DNA from: the human T2T-CHM13v2.0 reference genome, Homo sapiens
DNA length: 64,000 nt
Assembly: GCF_009914755.1 (NCBI RefSeq)
Contig: NC_060933.1
Reading direction: 5' to 3' (one strand)
Under the pieces are notes generated by a model that was not told the origin of the DNA, ran no database searches, and saw only the letters and a program-made list of their open reading frames with translations. Below are positions 19,452 through 29,882 of this stretch, one piece after another. Made by a program: the position numbers and the translations under genes. Position 1 is the stretch's first letter; each line of letters opens with the position of its first letter.

Positions 19452-19529
19452 AGAGTAATGGCAAGTTTACTGTAAAATTAACATTCTCAGTTGTCACAAG
19501 AAATCTGACAATCACTAAAATGGCAAGCA
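19452..19529 (-). pseudogene. Probable CNTNAP3/4-like exon 11 remnant (EGF-like module)
   Basis: Minus strand: cag|TGC TTG CC (CLP)...TCT TGT GAC (SCD)...ACT TGC CAT (TCH)...|gtatgt. Matches the anchors of RCLP...FSCDC...TCHS, with an internal deletion and stops. Confidence 0.55.
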
Positions 19530-19975
19530 CTGTGTTCTATTTGTGTCCTTTTCAGACATGATTGATAAGAATTTGTTACCTTATTAGCATGTCATAAGTA
19601 GACAGCAAAGTATGTTTTAAATTCAAAAATTATTATTTTCTGCTCACGTTCTACTTTCAGCAATGTACACAGTGATAGTAATGAAAGCAGCCATCAGAAT
19701 ACTCTATTTTCTTCATAGTTAGCTGCCAAATACTTCTTTTTTTCTATCCAGATCATACTTGTATTGCTTTTGTGCCTTTGAGCATAGTCATAAATTAGTA
19801 CACAGAGGAAGCAGGGCAGTGACAGCTATACATTTTTCTACAGAAGATCAGCTATTAAATCAAGAACCAAGAGAACCATCTCAGCCTGGACACTGAGAAC
19901 CGAAGCCACACCTTCCCACTGATATTAACATGACTTTGTTATTCTATTGTTCCATTAGTATTACTTTTCGAGGAC

Positions 19976-21182
19976 TGTCCTAGCTAAAGAATGGTTTGAT
20001 TTTTCATTATAGGAACTTCCCAAATGCTTTATCAACTCTTCAGGGGAAGTCATAGACCGAGTTTACAGCTTGAGTCTTTGAATCCTTCCCCACAAATCCT
20101 CACCTCACTATTTTCTCTAAGCCCAGACTGTTGTATCATGATTCTCACACAATTCTAATCAAATCCTCTCCTTCAGAGACCCATCTTAAAACAAACTTGC
20201 AGTTCTCAATAAATTCTGATCTCCCCTTCTCTCCTCTGAGATGCTGATAGAAATTTACAAAGGCTGTACTCTCTCCCTTGCCAGTGTATTAGTTTTCTAT
20301 TGCTGCTGTAACAAATTACCACAAACAGTGTTGTAAACAATCCAGACTTGTTATCCTACAGTCCTCTTGGTCAGACATTCAATGTGGGTCTCACTGACCT
20401 AAAATTCAGGCATCAGCAGGGTAGAGGTTCCTCCTGCAGGCTCTGGGCTCCTGTGTCTGACTTTTCCAGCATCTAGAGGCTGCCTGCTGTCCTCAGCCCC
20501 TGGCCCCTTCCTCCATCTTCACAGTCAGCAGTGATAGGCTGGGAGGCCTTCTCACGCTGCCATCTCTTTGGTTCTTTCTCTTCTGCCCCCCTCTTCCACT
20601 TTTAAGAACTTGTGATTAGCCCCATCTGGATAATCCAGGATAATCTCCCTATTTCAAAGTGAGTTAACAACTTTAATTCCAAATGTGGTCTTAATTTCCA
20701 TTTTTCATGTAAGTTCACATGTTCACATATTCCAGAGATGAGTGTGTGGACATCTTTGGGAGGTCAATTATTTTCCTGCCACATAGGTAAGCAATAAACT
20801 TCGCAATAAGCTGGGTGCTGTGGCTCATGCCTATAATCCCAGCACTTTGGGAGGCTGAGGTGGGTGGATCACCTGAGGTCAGGAGTTCAAGACTAGCCTG
20901 GCCAACATGGTGAAACCCCACCTCTACTAAAAATACAAAAATTAGCTGGGCGTGGTGGCAGGCATCTGTAATTCCAGCTACTCGGGAGGCTGAGGCAGGA
21001 GAATCGCTTGAACCTGGGAGGCAGAGGTTGCAGTGAGCCGAGACTGCGCCATTGCACTCCAGCCTAGGCGACAAGAGCGAAACTTCATCTCAAAAAAACA
21101 AAAAAACTTTGCAATAAATAAGCAATCAACTTTGTCTCATCAACATGTTATGTTGGTGATAATTGGGGATACAGCTTTGACA
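19976..21182 (+). mobile_element. ERV1-class LTR (MER67-like) interrupted by MLT1 (about 20285-20783) and an Alu (20809-21105)
   Basis: TGTCC...TTGACA termini; the sequence resumes after both inserts; Alu TSD AAACTTCGCAATAA / AAACTTTGCAATAA. Confidence 0.6.
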
Positions 21183-22339
21183 AGCAATTAGCACAAACAT
21201 GACCTACTTGCAGAAGCTTGTCATAGCTATTATTCTAAATATGGTAATAGATGACTGTAATAATCCAAGCCAAGAATTATGACATTTTAAATGCACACAC
21301 ACTCTTACTCCTGAAATATCCTCAAATGGACATTAACATACAAATATTTTAATTAGATTCTTTTAAATTCTTAAGATTATGTGATATAACCCAAAAATGG
21401 GGCTGAAATGTCAGGTGACAATAACACCCAAATGGAGGTTCCACTCAGCACTTCCAGGGACACCCCCCCCCCCAACATATATACACTCTTTACAGAAACA
21501 TATTTGGAAATGAATTCATTATTCATAAGTAGTTGTGAATAGTTAGAAAATAGATTTTACATTTCACATTCAATAAAACTCCCACAGAATGTCAATTCTC
21601 ATTATTCGTGGATTTTGTATTTTCAAATCCACCTTCTTGCTAAAATGTATTTGTATTTGCAAATTCACCCACCTGCTAAAATTTATTACTAACCCCAAAA
21701 TTCACACTCACAGCACCTTTTTTGTCATACACAGACTGGCCAAAAATTTCATTCTCCCAGCTTGCACATTCCCAGCTGATGTTGAACAAAACCGTGTTCT
21801 GCCTTCTTGTTTCAACTCTCATACTAAAATCAAGTGTCCTTTTCACAATCTGTTTAGTGTCGCGGTTTTCATATTTTTGTGCTTTTTTGGTGATTTTGAT
21901 GTTTACAATGGCCCCCAAACATAGTGCTAAAGTGCTCTCAAAGCACAAAAAGACCGTGATGTGCATTATGGAGGCACATGTGACATAAACTTTGTTCAGA
22001 TATGACCTATAGTGCCATTGGCTATAATCTCAATGCTGATGAATAAATTTTATATGTTAAATAAGGTGTCTTTAAACAGAAACACATATAAAACAAGATT
22101 ATGTCTTGATCATTTGATGAAAATGTTGCAGCCAGAGGCTCACAGAAACTTCCCCTTACATTTTCCCAAGAAGCAACAATTTAGTACGTGCTAATGTTGG
22201 AGCTCTGAAAACCATATCCTCAAAAATGGCACTTTGACATGTTGAGTGCTTTGAATTAAATAAAATTGAAAGGCCTCAGAAATAAGCCTCAGGACCAACA
22301 CTCTGTCTAACACCATCAGCCCCGCCAACCCCACCCTAC

Positions 22340-22709
22340 TGTATTAGTCTGTTCTCATGCTGCTGATAAAGACATACCCAAGACTGAGTAATTGATAAAG
22401 AAAAAGAGGTTTAATGGACTCACAGTTCCACATGGCCGGCGAGGCCTCACAATCACAGTGGAAGGCAAAAGGCACACCTTACATGGCAGCAACCAAGAAA
22501 GAATGAGAACCAAGTGAAAGAGGTTTCCCCTTATAAAAACATCAGCTCTCATGAGACTTATTCTGTTGCAGGAGAACAATATGGGGATATGGGGGGAACA
22601 GCCTCCATGATTCAATTATTTCCTACTGGGTCCTTCCCACAACATGTGGGAATTATGGGAGCTACAATTCAAGATGAGATTTGTGTGGGGACGTAGCCAA
22701 ACCATATCA
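22340..22709 (-). mobile_element. THE1 solo LTR
   Basis: TGTATTAGTC...CCAAACCATATCA, 5-bp TSD CCTAC. Confidence 0.9.
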
Positions 22710-22887
22710 CCTACCATCCTCTTTCTTTCCTGAAGCAAGGAAGCAAGAAAGGAGAGGCTTTTGCTGAAGTTTCCTTATCTGATTAAGTCTGACCAAGGGA
22801 GGTTTCTCCAGAAGAAATGCAGTGTTTTTGTTTGTTTGTTTGTTTGTTTTAATTTAGCCCAGTCAAATTGACATATACAAATGCAGG

Positions 22888-28066: not shown

Positions 28067-28748
28067 CTAGTAAGTAAAGTAAGTGAGGCTATGGAGTAGG
28101 TTTCAGAGTGGCACCTTCAATCTTACTCAGAAATGTCAAAGTCTTTACAAAGGCTTCTTCTAGACCTGTAAACCTAGAATTAATATAAATGCTCACCTAG
28201 GTCAAATTCAATGATATTTATCTTAAAGGGCTTTCAAATCTAAGTGAGTTTCAATAAGGCAAACCCTTCTGAGTCTTTTATTTCCCTAAGCATAAAATTC
28301 TATCTTCTCTACCTTCTGTACTTCTCAGCATTAGCAAAGGAATCTCATGATAATTGAATTCAATAGTAGTTTATCTGATGCCAACTATTTTCCCGTCTCT
28401 ATGCTGGGCCCTGGGTACACAACAATGAAAACAATGTCCTCCTCTCCACTACCCAGGCTGCCTTCTCCTCTAAATTGAACAATTGTCTGTGATTCACCAA
28501 CAACAAGAACTTTTCTTTACCTACCTACCTAAAATATATAAACACAATTGACAACTTCAGACATGTTCTTTCAATTGGAGGACAATTACAAATAGTTGTC
28601 CTTTGTATTGATGAAAAGGCTAGTGGCAAGGTTGGTTGTGGCCTGGGCAGCAGGCTAGATGGGCCTCTCAGGAGGACTTGCTAGGTTGCAGTGCCCCAGA
28701 GCAATTTATGACATAAAATCTGTAATATTTGAGAGATAATTGTCACAT

Positions 28749-28919
28749 CTTATAATCAAGATCAAATAACTGGGTTCTCCTTTTGTCTGCAAATGATGAT
28801 TGTGCTTGCCCACGGTGAAGCTGACCTTCGTGTCAAGGAGCTCGATGAGGATGGAATCCCAGTGCTGGCTGCCAGGGTGAGGGTCATTTTGGTTGCAGGC
28901 GAGGGTGATAGAATGTTAC
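28749..28919 (-). pseudogene. CNTNAP3/4-like exon 6 remnant (laminin G domain 1)
   Basis: [16 protein letters not shown]/.../[39 protein letters not shown] versus recalled CNTNAP3 [62 protein letters not shown] (25/35 identical in the core). 13-nt and 1-nt deletions; acceptor reads TG and donor reads AT. Confidence 0.92.
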
Positions 28920-29379
28920 CAAAAAGAGAGGAAAAACAAACTTTCAATTATGACAAGTGCAAAAAAACACATTTTTTATTTTGAGGTTTAGCATTTCTCA
29001 AAATAATTACAGTTACATGCTTCCATACTACGTACTTCTCTCTCAAAGATTAGTTGTTTGGATTTATCTAGGGCTTGAACACAATATCCTATCAACCTTG
29101 TAATCCTTTACATATCATTTGTATTGTTTTTAGTCATTTAGCTCAGTTTCCATTGAAATGTTACCTTTGCTCATTATTGCTACCTCTAAATGTCCTGTCC
29201 TTGTTTTTATGAGAACGGTGTGTAGCTATGTTGTTACATTAGAACTATATAAAGAGCATTAAAAGATGTACTTATTTCACAAATTGTCAAAATATAAACA
29301 AAATATAAAGCAAAAGACAATAGAGATATATAAACATAGCCCTTAAGAGCTGTAGATACACTCTTTTTTTGCCAAAGAT

Positions 29380-29632
29380 TTCTATTTTTATTGTAGATTT
29401 GGAGCGGGGGTACATGTGCAGGTTTGCTACAAGGATGTATTGCGTGATGCTGAGGTTTGGTCTTCAACTGAACCCATCACCCAAATAGTGAACATAGTAC
29501 CCGATAGGTAGTTTTTCACCCTTTGCCCCTTCCCTCTTTTCTGTCCTTCAGATTCTCTAGAATCTATTGTTCTCATCTTTGTGTACATGTGTACCTAATG
29601 TTTAGCTTCCACTTGTAGGTAAGAACATGTGA
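29380..29632 (-). mobile_element. L1P 3' end fragment in the pseudogene intron
   Basis: GGGGGTACATGTGCAGGTTTG...; degenerate TSD TAGATACACTCTT / TAAATATACTCTT. Confidence 0.85.
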
Positions 29633-29697
29633 TATAAATATACTCTTAAATTGTTCAAAGACAATGAATGCATCAAAAATATTTCCAAATGCCTTGC

Positions 29698-29882
29698 CTG
29701 AGAGTTTTATCTGAGTGAAAAGAGTTTTCCTTTTATTAATCCCAGGTTGATATGAGCTCCACTTTGTTCTCTGTGGAGTAAAATCCTATCTCTCTGAGGT
29801 TTTTGTTTTTAACAATTCTCATTGATTTTTATTGTACATATAAAAATGAAATCATTTAAGAAGATTCATAATGACAAGATAT
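29698..29882 (-). pseudogene. CNTNAP3/4-like exon 5 remnant
   Basis: tttaccctacag| acceptor; the 3' half reads QRDRILLHREQSGAHINLGLIKGKLF versus CNTNAP3 [27 protein letters not shown]; ends TCAG|gcaagg; the 5' half is badly degraded. Confidence 0.8.

What the first reader, a model, noticed from the sequence alone, without database searches (positions are those of the whole stretch)
19452..29882. Fossil of a diverged CNTNAP3/CNTNAP4-like gene hidden among repeats (unprocessed pseudogene, possibly a lost paralogue)
Seen: four minus-strand segments (29698-29882, 28749-28919, 27829-28066, 19452-19529) translate, across frameshifts, into contactin-associated-protein LamG and EGF peptides. They are collinear (exons 5, 6, 8, 11) and similarity stops at the expected exon edges. 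The 171-nt exon 6 plus the 13-nt and 1-nt deletions gives the 185 nt I recall for CNTNAP3 exon 6. Knowledge: the human CNTNAP3 duplicates on chromosome 9 are nearly identical to each other. Inference: this copy is far more diverged (25/35 residues in its best block) and has stops and broken splice sites, so it probably died long ago. It may be a separate family member still intact in other vertebrates. The ORF track misses most of it.
Basis: partly seen in the sequence, partly recalled or inferred. Interest (0 to 1): 0.9.

Follow-up and report, generated by a model that had tools for sequence, protein, structure and literature searches.

The report
Ancient dead copy of CNTNAP3
This stretch of human chromosome 9 holds the decayed remains, exons and introns alike, of a very old extra copy of the nerve-cell adhesion gene CNTNAP3, which split off at about the time placental mammals began to diversify and no longer codes for anything.

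Summary
The fourth (19452-19529) is not exon 11. It aligns to CNTNAP3 intron 8.

The fossil is larger than reported. A collinear chain of 40 low-copy blocks (5291 columns, 70.6% identity) links window -9080..54991 to CNTNAP3 exon 14 through intron 3, introns included. Exon 5 is split by a 1.3-kb interspersed repeat. Exon 14 lies 8.7 kb before the window. Exons 10 and 11 are faint, and 7, 9 and 12 were not found.

It is an unprocessed pseudogene with lost splice sites, frameshifts and 4 in-frame stops. Four 98-100% identical copies lie in the chromosome 9 pericentromeric duplications.

It is not one of the near-identical recent CNTNAP3 duplicates. Intron K80 is 0.31 and dS is 0.61. Trees put it inside the CNTNAP3 lineage but near its base.

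By-product: proteins named CNTNAP3 form two old paralogous groups. Group A holds human, other primates, tree shrew, rodents and rabbit. Group B holds the other placentals plus tarsier, which carries both. The fossil branches near the A/B split, most likely on the B stem.

It is an ordinary kind of object, unusually old, and unannotated in RefSeq.

The parts
1..54991 (-). Extent within the window of the collinear homology to the CNTNAP3 locus, corresponding to CNTNAP3 intron 11 through intron 3. It continues below position 1 to at least -9080, where exon 14 lies at -8789..-8622.
   Evidence: 40 chained low-copy blocks, 5291 columns, 70.6% identity; chain score 1761, against 145 for the opposite orientation and a maximum of 1119 in 200 permutations.
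31101..31215 (-). Exon 5 remnant, 5' half (first laminin-G region)
   Evidence: aa 197-218, 12/22 identical; codon projection 18/33; blastn block 31101-31148, 81.6% identity.
29797..31100 (.). Insertion that splits exon 5. Its core, 29909-30835, is an old interspersed repeat, probably a LINE (subfamily not named).
   Evidence: 16 dispersed hits in both orientations across the CNTNAP3 locus at 64-93% identity; GC 0.35.
29712..29835 (-). Exon 5 remnant, 3' half
   Evidence: aa 216-241, 18/26 identical; z 9.1.
28747..28973 (-). Exon 6 remnant (exon proper about 28749-28919) plus the adjoining intron 5 end. Both splice sites are lost, and deletions of 1+12+1 nt shift the frame.
   Evidence: 26/37 identical, E 1e-11; z 41; alignment.
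28305..28425 (-). Block homologous to CNTNAP3 intron 7. Exon 7 itself was not found: 329 bp here stand for 5.3 kb of CNTNAP3.
   Evidence: 79.7% identity; genome-wide, the only hits beyond the 4 fossil copies are the three CNTNAP3 copies (80%, E 2.7e-16); exon 7 z 0.5.
27833..28063 (-). Exon 8 remnant (second laminin-G region), with two in-frame stops, several deletions and a lost donor site
   Evidence: 33/71 identical, E 3e-9; z 34; alignment; 71-72% nt identity to the three real copies.
18816..19485 (-). Blocks homologous to CNTNAP3 intron 8.
   Evidence: five blocks, 68-91% identity; z 10.7 to intron 8, z 0.1 to exon 11; genome-wide, the only other hits are CNTNAP3B and CNTNAP3C intron 8.
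4509..4678 (-). Possible exon 10 remnant (weak)
   Evidence: score 105 against a shuffle maximum of 96, z 4.5, at the collinear place; 105/167 nt and 15/48 aa identical.
2694..2743 (-). Possible exon 11 (EGF) remnant (weak)
   Evidence: score 97 against a shuffle maximum of 84, z 5.3, at the collinear place; 8/17 residues, E 8.3 on its own.
1..808 (-). Block homologous to CNTNAP3 intron 11
   Evidence: 64.9% identity over about 840 columns, E 1e-32 to 3e-33.
40807..41007 (-). Block homologous to CNTNAP3 intron 4
   Evidence: 70.1% identity, E 1e-13.
42619..42700 (-). Borderline exon 4 remnant
   Evidence: score 98 against a shuffle maximum of 94, z 3.1.
45711..45886 (-). Block homologous to CNTNAP3 intron 3
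   Evidence: 68.5% identity, E 9e-9.

Best explanation
The window holds most of the 5' and middle part of an ancient unprocessed pseudogene, called F here. F is a genomic copy of a CNTNAP3-lineage gene, exons and introns together.

Origin. F arose near the time that lineage split into its two surviving paralogues, A and B. That is before the Euarchontoglires radiation and most likely before the placental crown (inference).

Decay. F then decayed essentially without constraint. It lost splice sites, acquired frameshifts and stops, was split in exon 5 by an interspersed repeat, and lost or blurred exons 7, 9 and 12.

Later history. F lies about 0.3-0.37 Mb from CNTNAP3 in the opposite orientation. 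It was copied passively along with that region by the recent pericentromeric segmental duplications of chromosome 9, giving four 98-100% identical copies. The window is one of them.

Function. It has no coding function. Any transcription or regulatory use is untested.
For: Shown by sequence comparison:
- Exons 5, 6, 8 and 14 match human CNTNAP3 in order and orientation, with E from 1e-11 to 6e-9 in the local search and z 9-41 against shuffles.
- A collinear chain of 40 low-copy blocks includes introns. It scores 1761, against 145 for the opposite orientation and a maximum of 1119 in 200 permutations.
- Intron blocks are unique genome-wide apart from the fossil copies and the CNTNAP3 copies.
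- Lesions are visible: exon 6 acceptor GG and donor AT, deletions, and 4 stops in 237 aligned codons.
- Four copies at 98-100% identity lie at chr9 39.555, 41.134, 43.847 and 78.595 Mb, near the CNTNAP3 copies at 39.185, 43.542 and 78.968 Mb.

Evidence for age:
- Intron blocks: 3653 sites, p 0.253, K80 0.314.
- Codons: dS 0.61, dN 0.255, omega 0.42 with 95% interval 0.28-0.61.
- 44 of 121 residues that are invariant in all living CNTNAP3 and CNTNAP4 sampled are replaced.

Evidence for lineage and placement:
- 7 of 8 CNTNAP3-versus-CNTNAP4 diagnostic residues are CNTNAP3 and none is CNTNAP4.
- UFBoot is 99 for CNTNAP3 plus fossil.
- Placement on the fixed full-length backbone gives likelihood weights of 0.75 for the B stem, 0.17 for basal B, 0.06 for the A stem and 0.02 for the CNTNAP3 stem. 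All other branches are at least 8.9 lnL worse.
Against: - AU tests on 232 sites do not formally reject placements inside primate A (p 0.07-0.17), beside tarsier B (p 0.10) or outside CNTNAP3+CNTNAP4 (p 0.26-0.28). The CNTNAP4 stem has p 0.038.
- The long pseudogene branch (0.53) may be drawn toward deep nodes.
- Alignable intron blocks are a biased, best-preserved sample, and CpG decay inflates dS, so the neutral distance lies only somewhere between 0.31 and 0.61.
- Conversion of these distances to years rests on recalled human-lineage branch lengths, not on a tool result.
- Omega of 0.42 is below the roughly 0.6 expected for a copy that was dead from birth, so F may have been functional for part of its history.
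- Pfam finds no laminin-G match in 5 stop-free fossil pieces.
- No other species' genomic DNA could be examined.
Confidence: 0.8

Rival explanations
1. F is the human remnant of the B-type CNTNAP3 gene, the gene still intact in tarsier, carnivores, ungulates, bats, afrotherians and xenarthrans. It would have been lost in the line to anthropoids.
For: - The best placements are on the B side, with a summed likelihood weight of 0.92.
- F is sister to B with UFBoot 91.
- Searches of the genome with exons 3, 8, 14 and 20 find no other B-like remnant.
- Omega of 0.42 allows a functional period.
- AU does not reject a place beside tarsier B (p 0.10).
Against: - F carries 0 of 5 B-derived residues: 4 are ancestral and 1 is something else. 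Tarsier B carries 4 of those 5.
- Placement beside tarsier B is 14.2 lnL worse, with negligible likelihood weight.
- 36% of invariant residues are replaced (95% interval 28-46%). By recalled rates this is more than about 65 My of anthropoid neutral change should give.
- Where the A and B majority residues differ, F sides with A at 18 sites and with B at 21 of 48.
Confidence: 0.17
2. F is an early local (inverted) duplicate of the A gene, made on the A stem after the A/B split and dead soon after.
For: - F lies 0.3-0.37 Mb from A in every duplicated unit.
- It shares 2 of 7 A-derived residues, plus one at a three-state site.
- The A-stem placement is only 2.5 lnL below the best, with likelihood weight 0.06 and AU p 0.58.
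Against: The ML placement prefers the B stem (weight 0.75). Four of 7 A-derived sites are ancestral in F.
Confidence: 0.15
3. F is a recent primate or hominid segmental duplicate of CNTNAP3, like CNTNAP3B and CNTNAP3C, that decayed unusually fast.
For: It lies in the chromosome 9 pericentromeric duplication zone. AU does not reject primate placements at 5%.
Against: - Nucleotide identity to CNTNAP3 is 65-86% per block, introns included. The real copies are 90-100% identical at the protein level.
- An Alu masked at 4031-4364 falls in a 507-bp gap between chain blocks that is 200 bp in CNTNAP3 (and hub mask list).
- The Euarchontoglires A clade excludes F with UFBoot 99-100.
Confidence: 0.02
4. 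The similarity is chance, or comes from another laminin-G gene or a processed pseudogene.
For: Pfam finds no domain in the short fossil pieces.
Against: - Genome-wide E values run from 1.8e-14 to 2.9e-7.
- Exons are collinear and separated by intron-homologous DNA, which rules out a processed copy.
- The genome-wide nucleotide search with the exon 8 segment hits only chromosome 9 CNTNAP3 copies.
Confidence: 0.01

Closest known systems
Human CNTNAP3 (Caspr3), chr9 39.09-39.30 Mb in T2T (group A here)
   Same: Same exon order, same exon-intron layout and the same strand logic. Intron blocks are homologous. CNTNAP3-specific residues are present at 7 of 8 diagnostic sites.
   Different: Identity is about 58% in protein (135/232) and 65-86% per block in DNA. 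Splice sites are lost, and there are stops, frameshifts, a repeat inside exon 5 and missing exons. F is outside the Euarchontoglires CNTNAP3 clade.
Recent chromosome 9 duplicates: CNTNAP3B, CNTNAP3C and the partial copy at 41.34-41.39 Mb. The named pseudogenes CNTNAP3P2 and CNTNAP3P4 appear only in gene lists of papers (listings only).
   Same: Same chromosome zone. F was co-amplified by the same duplications.
   Different: Those copies are 90-100% identical to CNTNAP3 in protein. F is far older. I could not check where the named CNTNAP3P genes map.
B-type 'CNTNAP3' of tarsier (P0305) and of carnivores, ungulates, bats, Eulipotyphla, pangolin, afrotherians and xenarthrans
   Same: This is the nearest intact lineage by ML placement. 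Identity to the fossil is similar to that of A (B majority 138/232, A majority 135/232).
   Different: F lacks all 5 B-derived residues and falls outside the B crown. Orthology is not shown.
CNTNAP4 (chr16)
   Same: Nearly as similar in protein (C4 majority 131/232).
   Different: No CNTNAP4-specific residue is present at the 8 diagnostic sites. There was no nucleotide hit to chr16 with the exon 8 segment. The tree separates them (UFBoot 98-99).

Membership tests
CNTNAP3 lineage (as against CNTNAP4, 2, 5, 1) | Significant, collinear similarity to CNTNAP3 exons | tested here: met
   exons 5, 6, 8 and 14 are clear, 10 and 11 weak, 4 and 13 borderline, and 7, 9 and 12 were not found.
CNTNAP3 lineage (as against CNTNAP4, 2, 5, 1) | Residues that distinguish CNTNAP3 from CNTNAP4 | tested here: met
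   7 of 8 sites carry the CNTNAP3 state, 0 the CNTNAP4 state and 1 something else.
CNTNAP3 lineage (as against CNTNAP4, 2, 5, 1) | Tree placement inside the CNTNAP3 clade | tested here: met
   UFBoot 99. CNTNAP4-stem placement is 12.2 lnL worse, AU p 0.038. Placement outside CNTNAP3+CNTNAP4 is not rejected by AU (p 0.26-0.28).
CNTNAP3 lineage (as against CNTNAP4, 2, 5, 1) | Intron-level homology to the CNTNAP3 locus | tested here: met
Unprocessed (duplicated) pseudogene | Keeps the exon-intron layout of the parent gene | tested here: met
   exons are separated by DNA homologous to the matching introns.
Unprocessed (duplicated) pseudogene | Disabling lesions | tested here: met
   lost splice sites, frameshifting deletions and 4 stops in 237 codons; repeat inside exon 5.
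Recent chromosome 9 CNTNAP3 segmental duplicates | Near-identity to CNTNAP3, introns included | tested here: not met
   65-86% identity per block; intron K80 0.31.
Processed pseudogene | Contiguous exons without introns | tested here: not met
   exons are spread over more than 40 kb, with intron homology between them.
Orthologue of B-type CNTNAP3 | Shares the residues derived on the B stem and nests in crown B | tested here: not met
   0 of 5; best place is on the B stem outside the crown; the place beside tarsier B is 14.2 lnL worse (AU p 0.10, so not formally excluded).
Orthologue of B-type CNTNAP3 | Syntenic position in other mammals | not testable with these tools
   No other vertebrate genome is held.
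Laminin G domain (Pfam PF02210 / PF00054) | Profile match above the curated cut-off | tested here: inconclusive
   0 of 5 stop-free fossil pieces (22-48 aa) match; the pieces are short and decayed. The parent protein P0018 matches with 4 stretches.

The most novel reading that the evidence does not exclude
Mammalian 'CNTNAP3' may be a case of hidden paralogy with reciprocal loss. Under this reading the fossil is what is left in humans of the B-type gene that dog, pig, bat, elephant, sloth and tarsier still use. The living human and rodent CNTNAP3 would then be the other paralogue (A). Human and mouse CNTNAP3 would not be orthologous to the gene of the same name in most other placentals, and the dead partner would still be readable beside the living one on 9p.
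Probability: 0.17. Interest if true: 0.6.

Novelty: new member of a known kind. Interest (0 to 1): 0.38.

Why it matters
In itself this is a dead gene, and an example of a well-known kind of object. It matters in three modest ways.

1. It is an unusually old unprocessed pseudogene whose introns are still recognisable. It is missing from the RefSeq annotation of this window, so it would confuse gene prediction and homology searches in a zone that was only recently assembled.

2. It marks an old local duplication at the CNTNAP3 locus, long before the hominid segmental duplications. It can therefore serve as a marker of the ancestral unit that was later amplified.

3. Following it up showed that proteins named CNTNAP3 fall into two old paralogous groups that are kept in different mammals, with tarsier holding both. 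If confirmed with genome alignments, this affects how results are carried over between rodent or primate models and carnivore or ungulate models for a gene family linked to neurodevelopment.

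Tried and rejected
I used stop-free pieces later.
- plain blastn of the window against the CNTNAP3 locus was swamped by Alu pairs (2000-HSP cap). My first chain was built from non-orthologous Alu pairs and was discarded. I kept only low-copy HSPs afterwards.
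- exon search with +2/-3 scoring was too strict for about 70% identity and found nothing. I repeated it with +5/-4.
- the fossil exon 8 peptide against the 5.8-billion-protein index gave 13 candidates and none scored. The word index cannot reach it, so this says nothing about an intact orthologue.
- the representatives search gave unnamed 50%-identity representatives. They served only as outgroups (7 of 150; 3 of 150).
- AU tests with constrained searches rejected nothing at 5%. The '-fast' constrained trees were up to 4.8 lnL below the unconstrained tree, so I replaced them with branch-by-branch placement on a fixed backbone.
- I first considered that A arose inside B on the Euarchontoglires stem and only looks basal because it evolves fast. 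I rejected this because B has its own stem: aLRT 99.8 and 12 strict B-derived sites, of which tarsier B carries 9.
- timed out and were rerun in lighter form.
- Paper searches (listings and abstract starts only, no paper read) turned up no description of this fossil or of the A/B paralogy. Subscription literature, GENCODE, Ensembl gene trees and pseudogene databases were not searched.

Full report
WHAT WAS CHECKED. I read and translated the four claimed minus-strand segments. The window is T2T chr9:41,106,001-41,170,000 and the whole genome could be searched.

The exon 8 segment (27829-28066) has 7 matches in the genome:
- Four at 100% identity: chr9 39.555 Mb (+), 41.134 Mb (-, the window itself), 43.847 Mb (+) and 78.595 Mb (-).
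- Three at 71-72%: chr9 39.185 Mb (-), 43.542 Mb (-) and 78.968 Mb (+).

I fetched 250 kb around 39.185 Mb. I also obtained human CNTNAP3 (P0018, 1288 aa) and many mammalian CNTNAP3 and CNTNAP4 proteins from the protein library (556 of 660 candidates at E<=0.001, best 120 listed). tblastn of P0018 on the 250 kb recovers the CNTNAP3 exons, so the 71-72% matches are the true exon 8 of CNTNAP3 and its two near-identical copies.

THE OBSERVATION. tblastn of P0018 on the window plus the 10 kb before it (L033) gives the following minus-strand hits:
- Exon 5 in two pieces: aa 197-218 at 31166-31101 (12/22) and aa 216-241 at 29796-29722 (18/26).
- Exon 6: aa 270-306 at 28867-28757 (26/37, E 1e-11), with its first part in another frame.
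- Exon 8: aa 372-442 at 28021-27836 (33/71, E 3e-9).
- Exon 14 outside the window at -8622..-8789 (27/56, E 6e-9).

I aligned each real exon to its collinear slot, with 100 shuffles each. The z scores fall into three groups:
- Clear: exon 6 z 41, exon 8 z 34, exon 14 z 33, exon 5 z 9.
- Weak or borderline: exon 11 z 5.3 (2694-2743), exon 10 z 4.5 (4509-4678), exon 4 z 3.1, exon 13 z 2.6.
- Not found: exons 7, 9 and 12, all z below 1.

The exon 6 alignment shows the acceptor AG changed to GG, the donor GT changed to AT, and deletions of 1, 12 and 1 nt.

None of its frames beats shuffles against the protein. So three of the four segments stand and the fourth is an intron.

IT IS A GENOMIC COPY, INTRONS INCLUDED. 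I dropped HSPs that fall in multi-copy DNA. The 97 remaining same-orientation HSPs give a collinear chain of 40 blocks (5291 columns, mean identity 70.6%; 24 of the 40 have E<1e-3 on their own). The chain runs from window -9080 to 54991 and from CNTNAP3 exon 14 to intron 3.

Controls: the best chain in the opposite orientation scores 145 against 1761. In 200 permutations of subject places the mean is 813 and the maximum 1119.

Two intron pieces were searched against the whole genome. The intron 7 block hits only the four fossil copies (99-100%) and the three CNTNAP3 copies (80%, E 2.7e-16). The intron 8 block hits the four copies (98-100%) and two CNTNAP3 copies (72%).

Exon 5 is split by 1.3 kb whose core, 29909-30835, has 16 dispersed matches in both orientations in the CNTNAP3 locus. 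It is therefore an interspersed repeat. Where exon 7 should be, 329 bp stand for 5.3 kb of CNTNAP3.

This is therefore an unprocessed pseudogene. It fills most of the window, not only 19452-29882.

AGE.
- Intron blocks with E<0.01: 3653 sites, p 0.253, K80 0.314.
- Exon blocks: 571 sites, K80 0.279.
- Nei-Gojobori on 233 codons against human CNTNAP3: dS 0.61, dN 0.255, omega 0.42 with bootstrap 95% interval 0.28-0.61. There are 4 in-frame stops in 237 codons.
- Of 121 residues invariant in all sampled CNTNAP3 and CNTNAP4, 44 are replaced in the fossil (95% interval 28-46%).

Alignable introns are the best-kept ones, and CpG loss inflates dS, so the neutral distance lies between about 0.3 and 0.6. 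By recalled human-lineage branch lengths (about 0.135 to the Euarchontoglires node and about 0.18 to the placental node; from memory, not from a tool), half of that distance reaches or passes those nodes. This conversion is inference.

An Alu masked at 4031-4364 (hub list) sits in a 507-bp gap between chain blocks that is 200 bp in CNTNAP3. That fits insertion after the duplication.

PHYLOGENY. I projected fossil exons 5, 6, 8 and 14 codon by codon on the human frame, with X at gaps and stops. This gave 232 usable sites. Exons 10 and 11 were left out as too weak.

First set. I hand-picked 46 of the 270 proteins then held, one per species or lineage. None was dropped by the length filter. Fossil identity is 58% to catarrhine CNTNAP3, 57% to seal CNTNAP3 and 49-55% to CNTNAP4. 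The ML tree puts the fossil inside CNTNAP3 (aLRT/UFBoot 91.4/96) and outside Euarchontoglires CNTNAP3 (99.7/100). AU tests rejected none of 7 alternatives at 5%.

Second set. A search with sloth CNTNAP3 (2479 hits among 8000 scored, best 120 listed) added afrotherians, ungulates, Eulipotyphla and a tarsier protein (P0305). With 58 hand-picked of the 365 proteins held, the 232-site tree and a full-length tree without the fossil (1194 columns) both split CNTNAP3 into two groups:
- Group A: tree shrew, strepsirrhines, anthropoids, rodents and rabbit (UFBoot 99; aLRT 100).
- Group B: afrotherians, then xenarthrans, then tarsier P0305 plus Laurasiatheria (UFBoot 97; aLRT 99.8).

Tarsier also has a 141-aa fragment (P0063) that is 109/136 identical to human A but only 81/136 to its own P0305. 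A and B therefore coexist in one genome and are paralogues. At strict full-length sites, P0305 is ancestral at 15 of 18 A-derived sites and carries 9 of 12 B-derived states.

Because B has its own stem and contains all four placental superorders, the A/B split predates the placental crown. This is an inference from the tree.

WHERE THE FOSSIL SITS. I placed the fossil on each of the 113 branches of the fixed full-length backbone.

| Placement | Likelihood weight | lnL below best | AU p |
|---|---|---|---|
| B stem | 0.75 | 0 | 0.94 |
| Two basal B branches | 0.083 each | 2.2 | 0.36 |
| A stem | 0.063 | 2.5 | 0.58 |
| CNTNAP3 stem | 0.019 | 3.7 | 0.10 |
| Beside tarsier B | negligible | 14.2 | 0.10 |
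| Beside human or chimpanzee A | negligible | 15.9-16.6 | 0.07-0.17 |
| CNTNAP4 stem | negligible | 12.2 | 0.038 |

In all, 16 of 113 placements keep AU p>=0.05.

Site patterns at 80% consensus:
- CNTNAP3-versus-CNTNAP4 sites: 7 of 8 carry the CNTNAP3 state and 0 the CNTNAP4 state.
- A-derived sites: the fossil equals A at 2 of 7 and is ancestral at 4.
- B-derived sites: the fossil equals B at 0 of 5 and is ancestral at 4.

Where the A and B majorities differ (48 sites), the fossil sides with A at 18 and with B at 21. Its pendant branch is 0.53, against 0.16-0.33 for living genes measured from the same node.

The fossil is thus a CNTNAP3-lineage copy that separated at about the A/B split. It is not nested in primates, and it is not shown to be the orthologue of B.

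COPIES AND SURROUNDINGS. Searching with exon 14 finds exactly four fossil copies: 39,589,662 (+), 43,883,647 (+), 41,097,211 (-) and 78,560,813 (-). It finds no other fossil family.

In three of the four units the fossil lies 0.3-0.37 Mb from a full CNTNAP3 copy in the opposite orientation. Near the window's copy there is only a partial high-identity CNTNAP3 copy (aa 620-1226, 41.340-41.395 Mb, +).

No fossil of exon 3 or exon 20 was found. Diverged exon 19 copies (49-51% identity, with a TGA inside; one copy at 38-43% with more stops) lie at six chromosome 9 places. Four of these are 205-243 kb from a fossil copy and in the opposite orientation. They are either a displaced 3' half of this fossil or a different fossil; I did not resolve which.

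WHAT IT DOES. Nothing as a gene. It has no open frame and no splice sites at the exons examined, and RefSeq lists no gene or functional element in the window (hub note). Pfam finds no domain in 5 stop-free pieces. In the parent protein these exons lie between the F5/8 type C domain (46-174) and the EGF domain (551-582), where two of its four laminin-G stretches must fall (only the best stretch is printed, so this is positional inference). Transcription was not testable.

KNOWN OR NEW. Five paper searches (listings and abstract starts only) showed nothing on this fossil or on the A/B paralogy. Named CNTNAP3 pseudogenes occur in gene lists, but I could not see where they map.

VERDICT. This is a real and very old unprocessed pseudogene. 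The kind of object is ordinary, the age and state of preservation are unusual, and the paralogy in 'CNTNAP3' is a useful by-product that needs genome alignments to settle.

Noticed in passing
Proteins P0305 and P0063 (tarsier) and the trees: Proteins annotated as CNTNAP3 form two old paralogous groups. Group A holds primates other than tarsier, tree shrew, rodents and rabbit. Group B holds afrotherians, xenarthrans, Laurasiatheria and tarsier P0305. Tarsier has both a B gene and an A-type fragment. No A-type protein from outside Euarchontoglires appeared in the two listings of 120.
   Followed up: partly
G000 chr9: 40,891,527-40,891,743 (+), 39,792,462-39,792,678 (-), 78,367,730-78,367,946 (+), 44,309,197-44,309,413 (+), 80,253,644-80,253,860 (-), 44,090,402-44,090,630 (-): Diverged remnants of CNTNAP3 exon 19 (49-51% identical, with a TGA inside; the 44,090,402 copy is 38-43% with more stops). 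Four of them lie 205-243 kb from a fossil copy and in the opposite orientation. They may be a displaced 3' half of the same fossil or a second fossil.
   Followed up: no
G000 chr9: 41,340,227-41,394,851 (+), about 170-225 kb after the window: A partial, high-identity copy of CNTNAP3 covering only aa 620-1226 (80-100% identical exons). This is a recent truncated duplicate.
   Followed up: no
window 34500-36900: A GC-rich block (GC 0.55-0.68, CpG observed/expected 0.33-0.61) inside the fossil's intron 4 region. It has no counterpart in the chain to CNTNAP3. Frames are open on both strands, as expected for GC-rich DNA, and there are no tandem repeats. Its nature is unknown.
   Followed up: partly
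window 22336-22717, 37729-38344, 9800-9894, 41199-41288: A medium-copy repeat. Each of these stretches matches the same two places in the CNTNAP3 locus (about 39,160,300-39,160,655 and 39,261,533-39,261,904) in opposite orientations, at 72-84% identity (100% over a further 24-bp fragment at 41814-41837). It is not part of the collinear homology.
   Followed up: no
protein P0316 (Phyllostomus discolor, 'hypothetical protein'): I labelled it a CNTNAP3 when choosing rows; its listed name is truncated after 'Contactin-associated protein-l'. It groups with CNTNAP4 in both trees.
   Followed up: no
L015 (chr9:39,131,500-39,131,658), real CNTNAP3 exon 14: The T2T copy differs from the library protein P0018 at 2 of 53 residues in this exon. 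This may be a polymorphism or a difference between paralogous copies.
   Followed up: no
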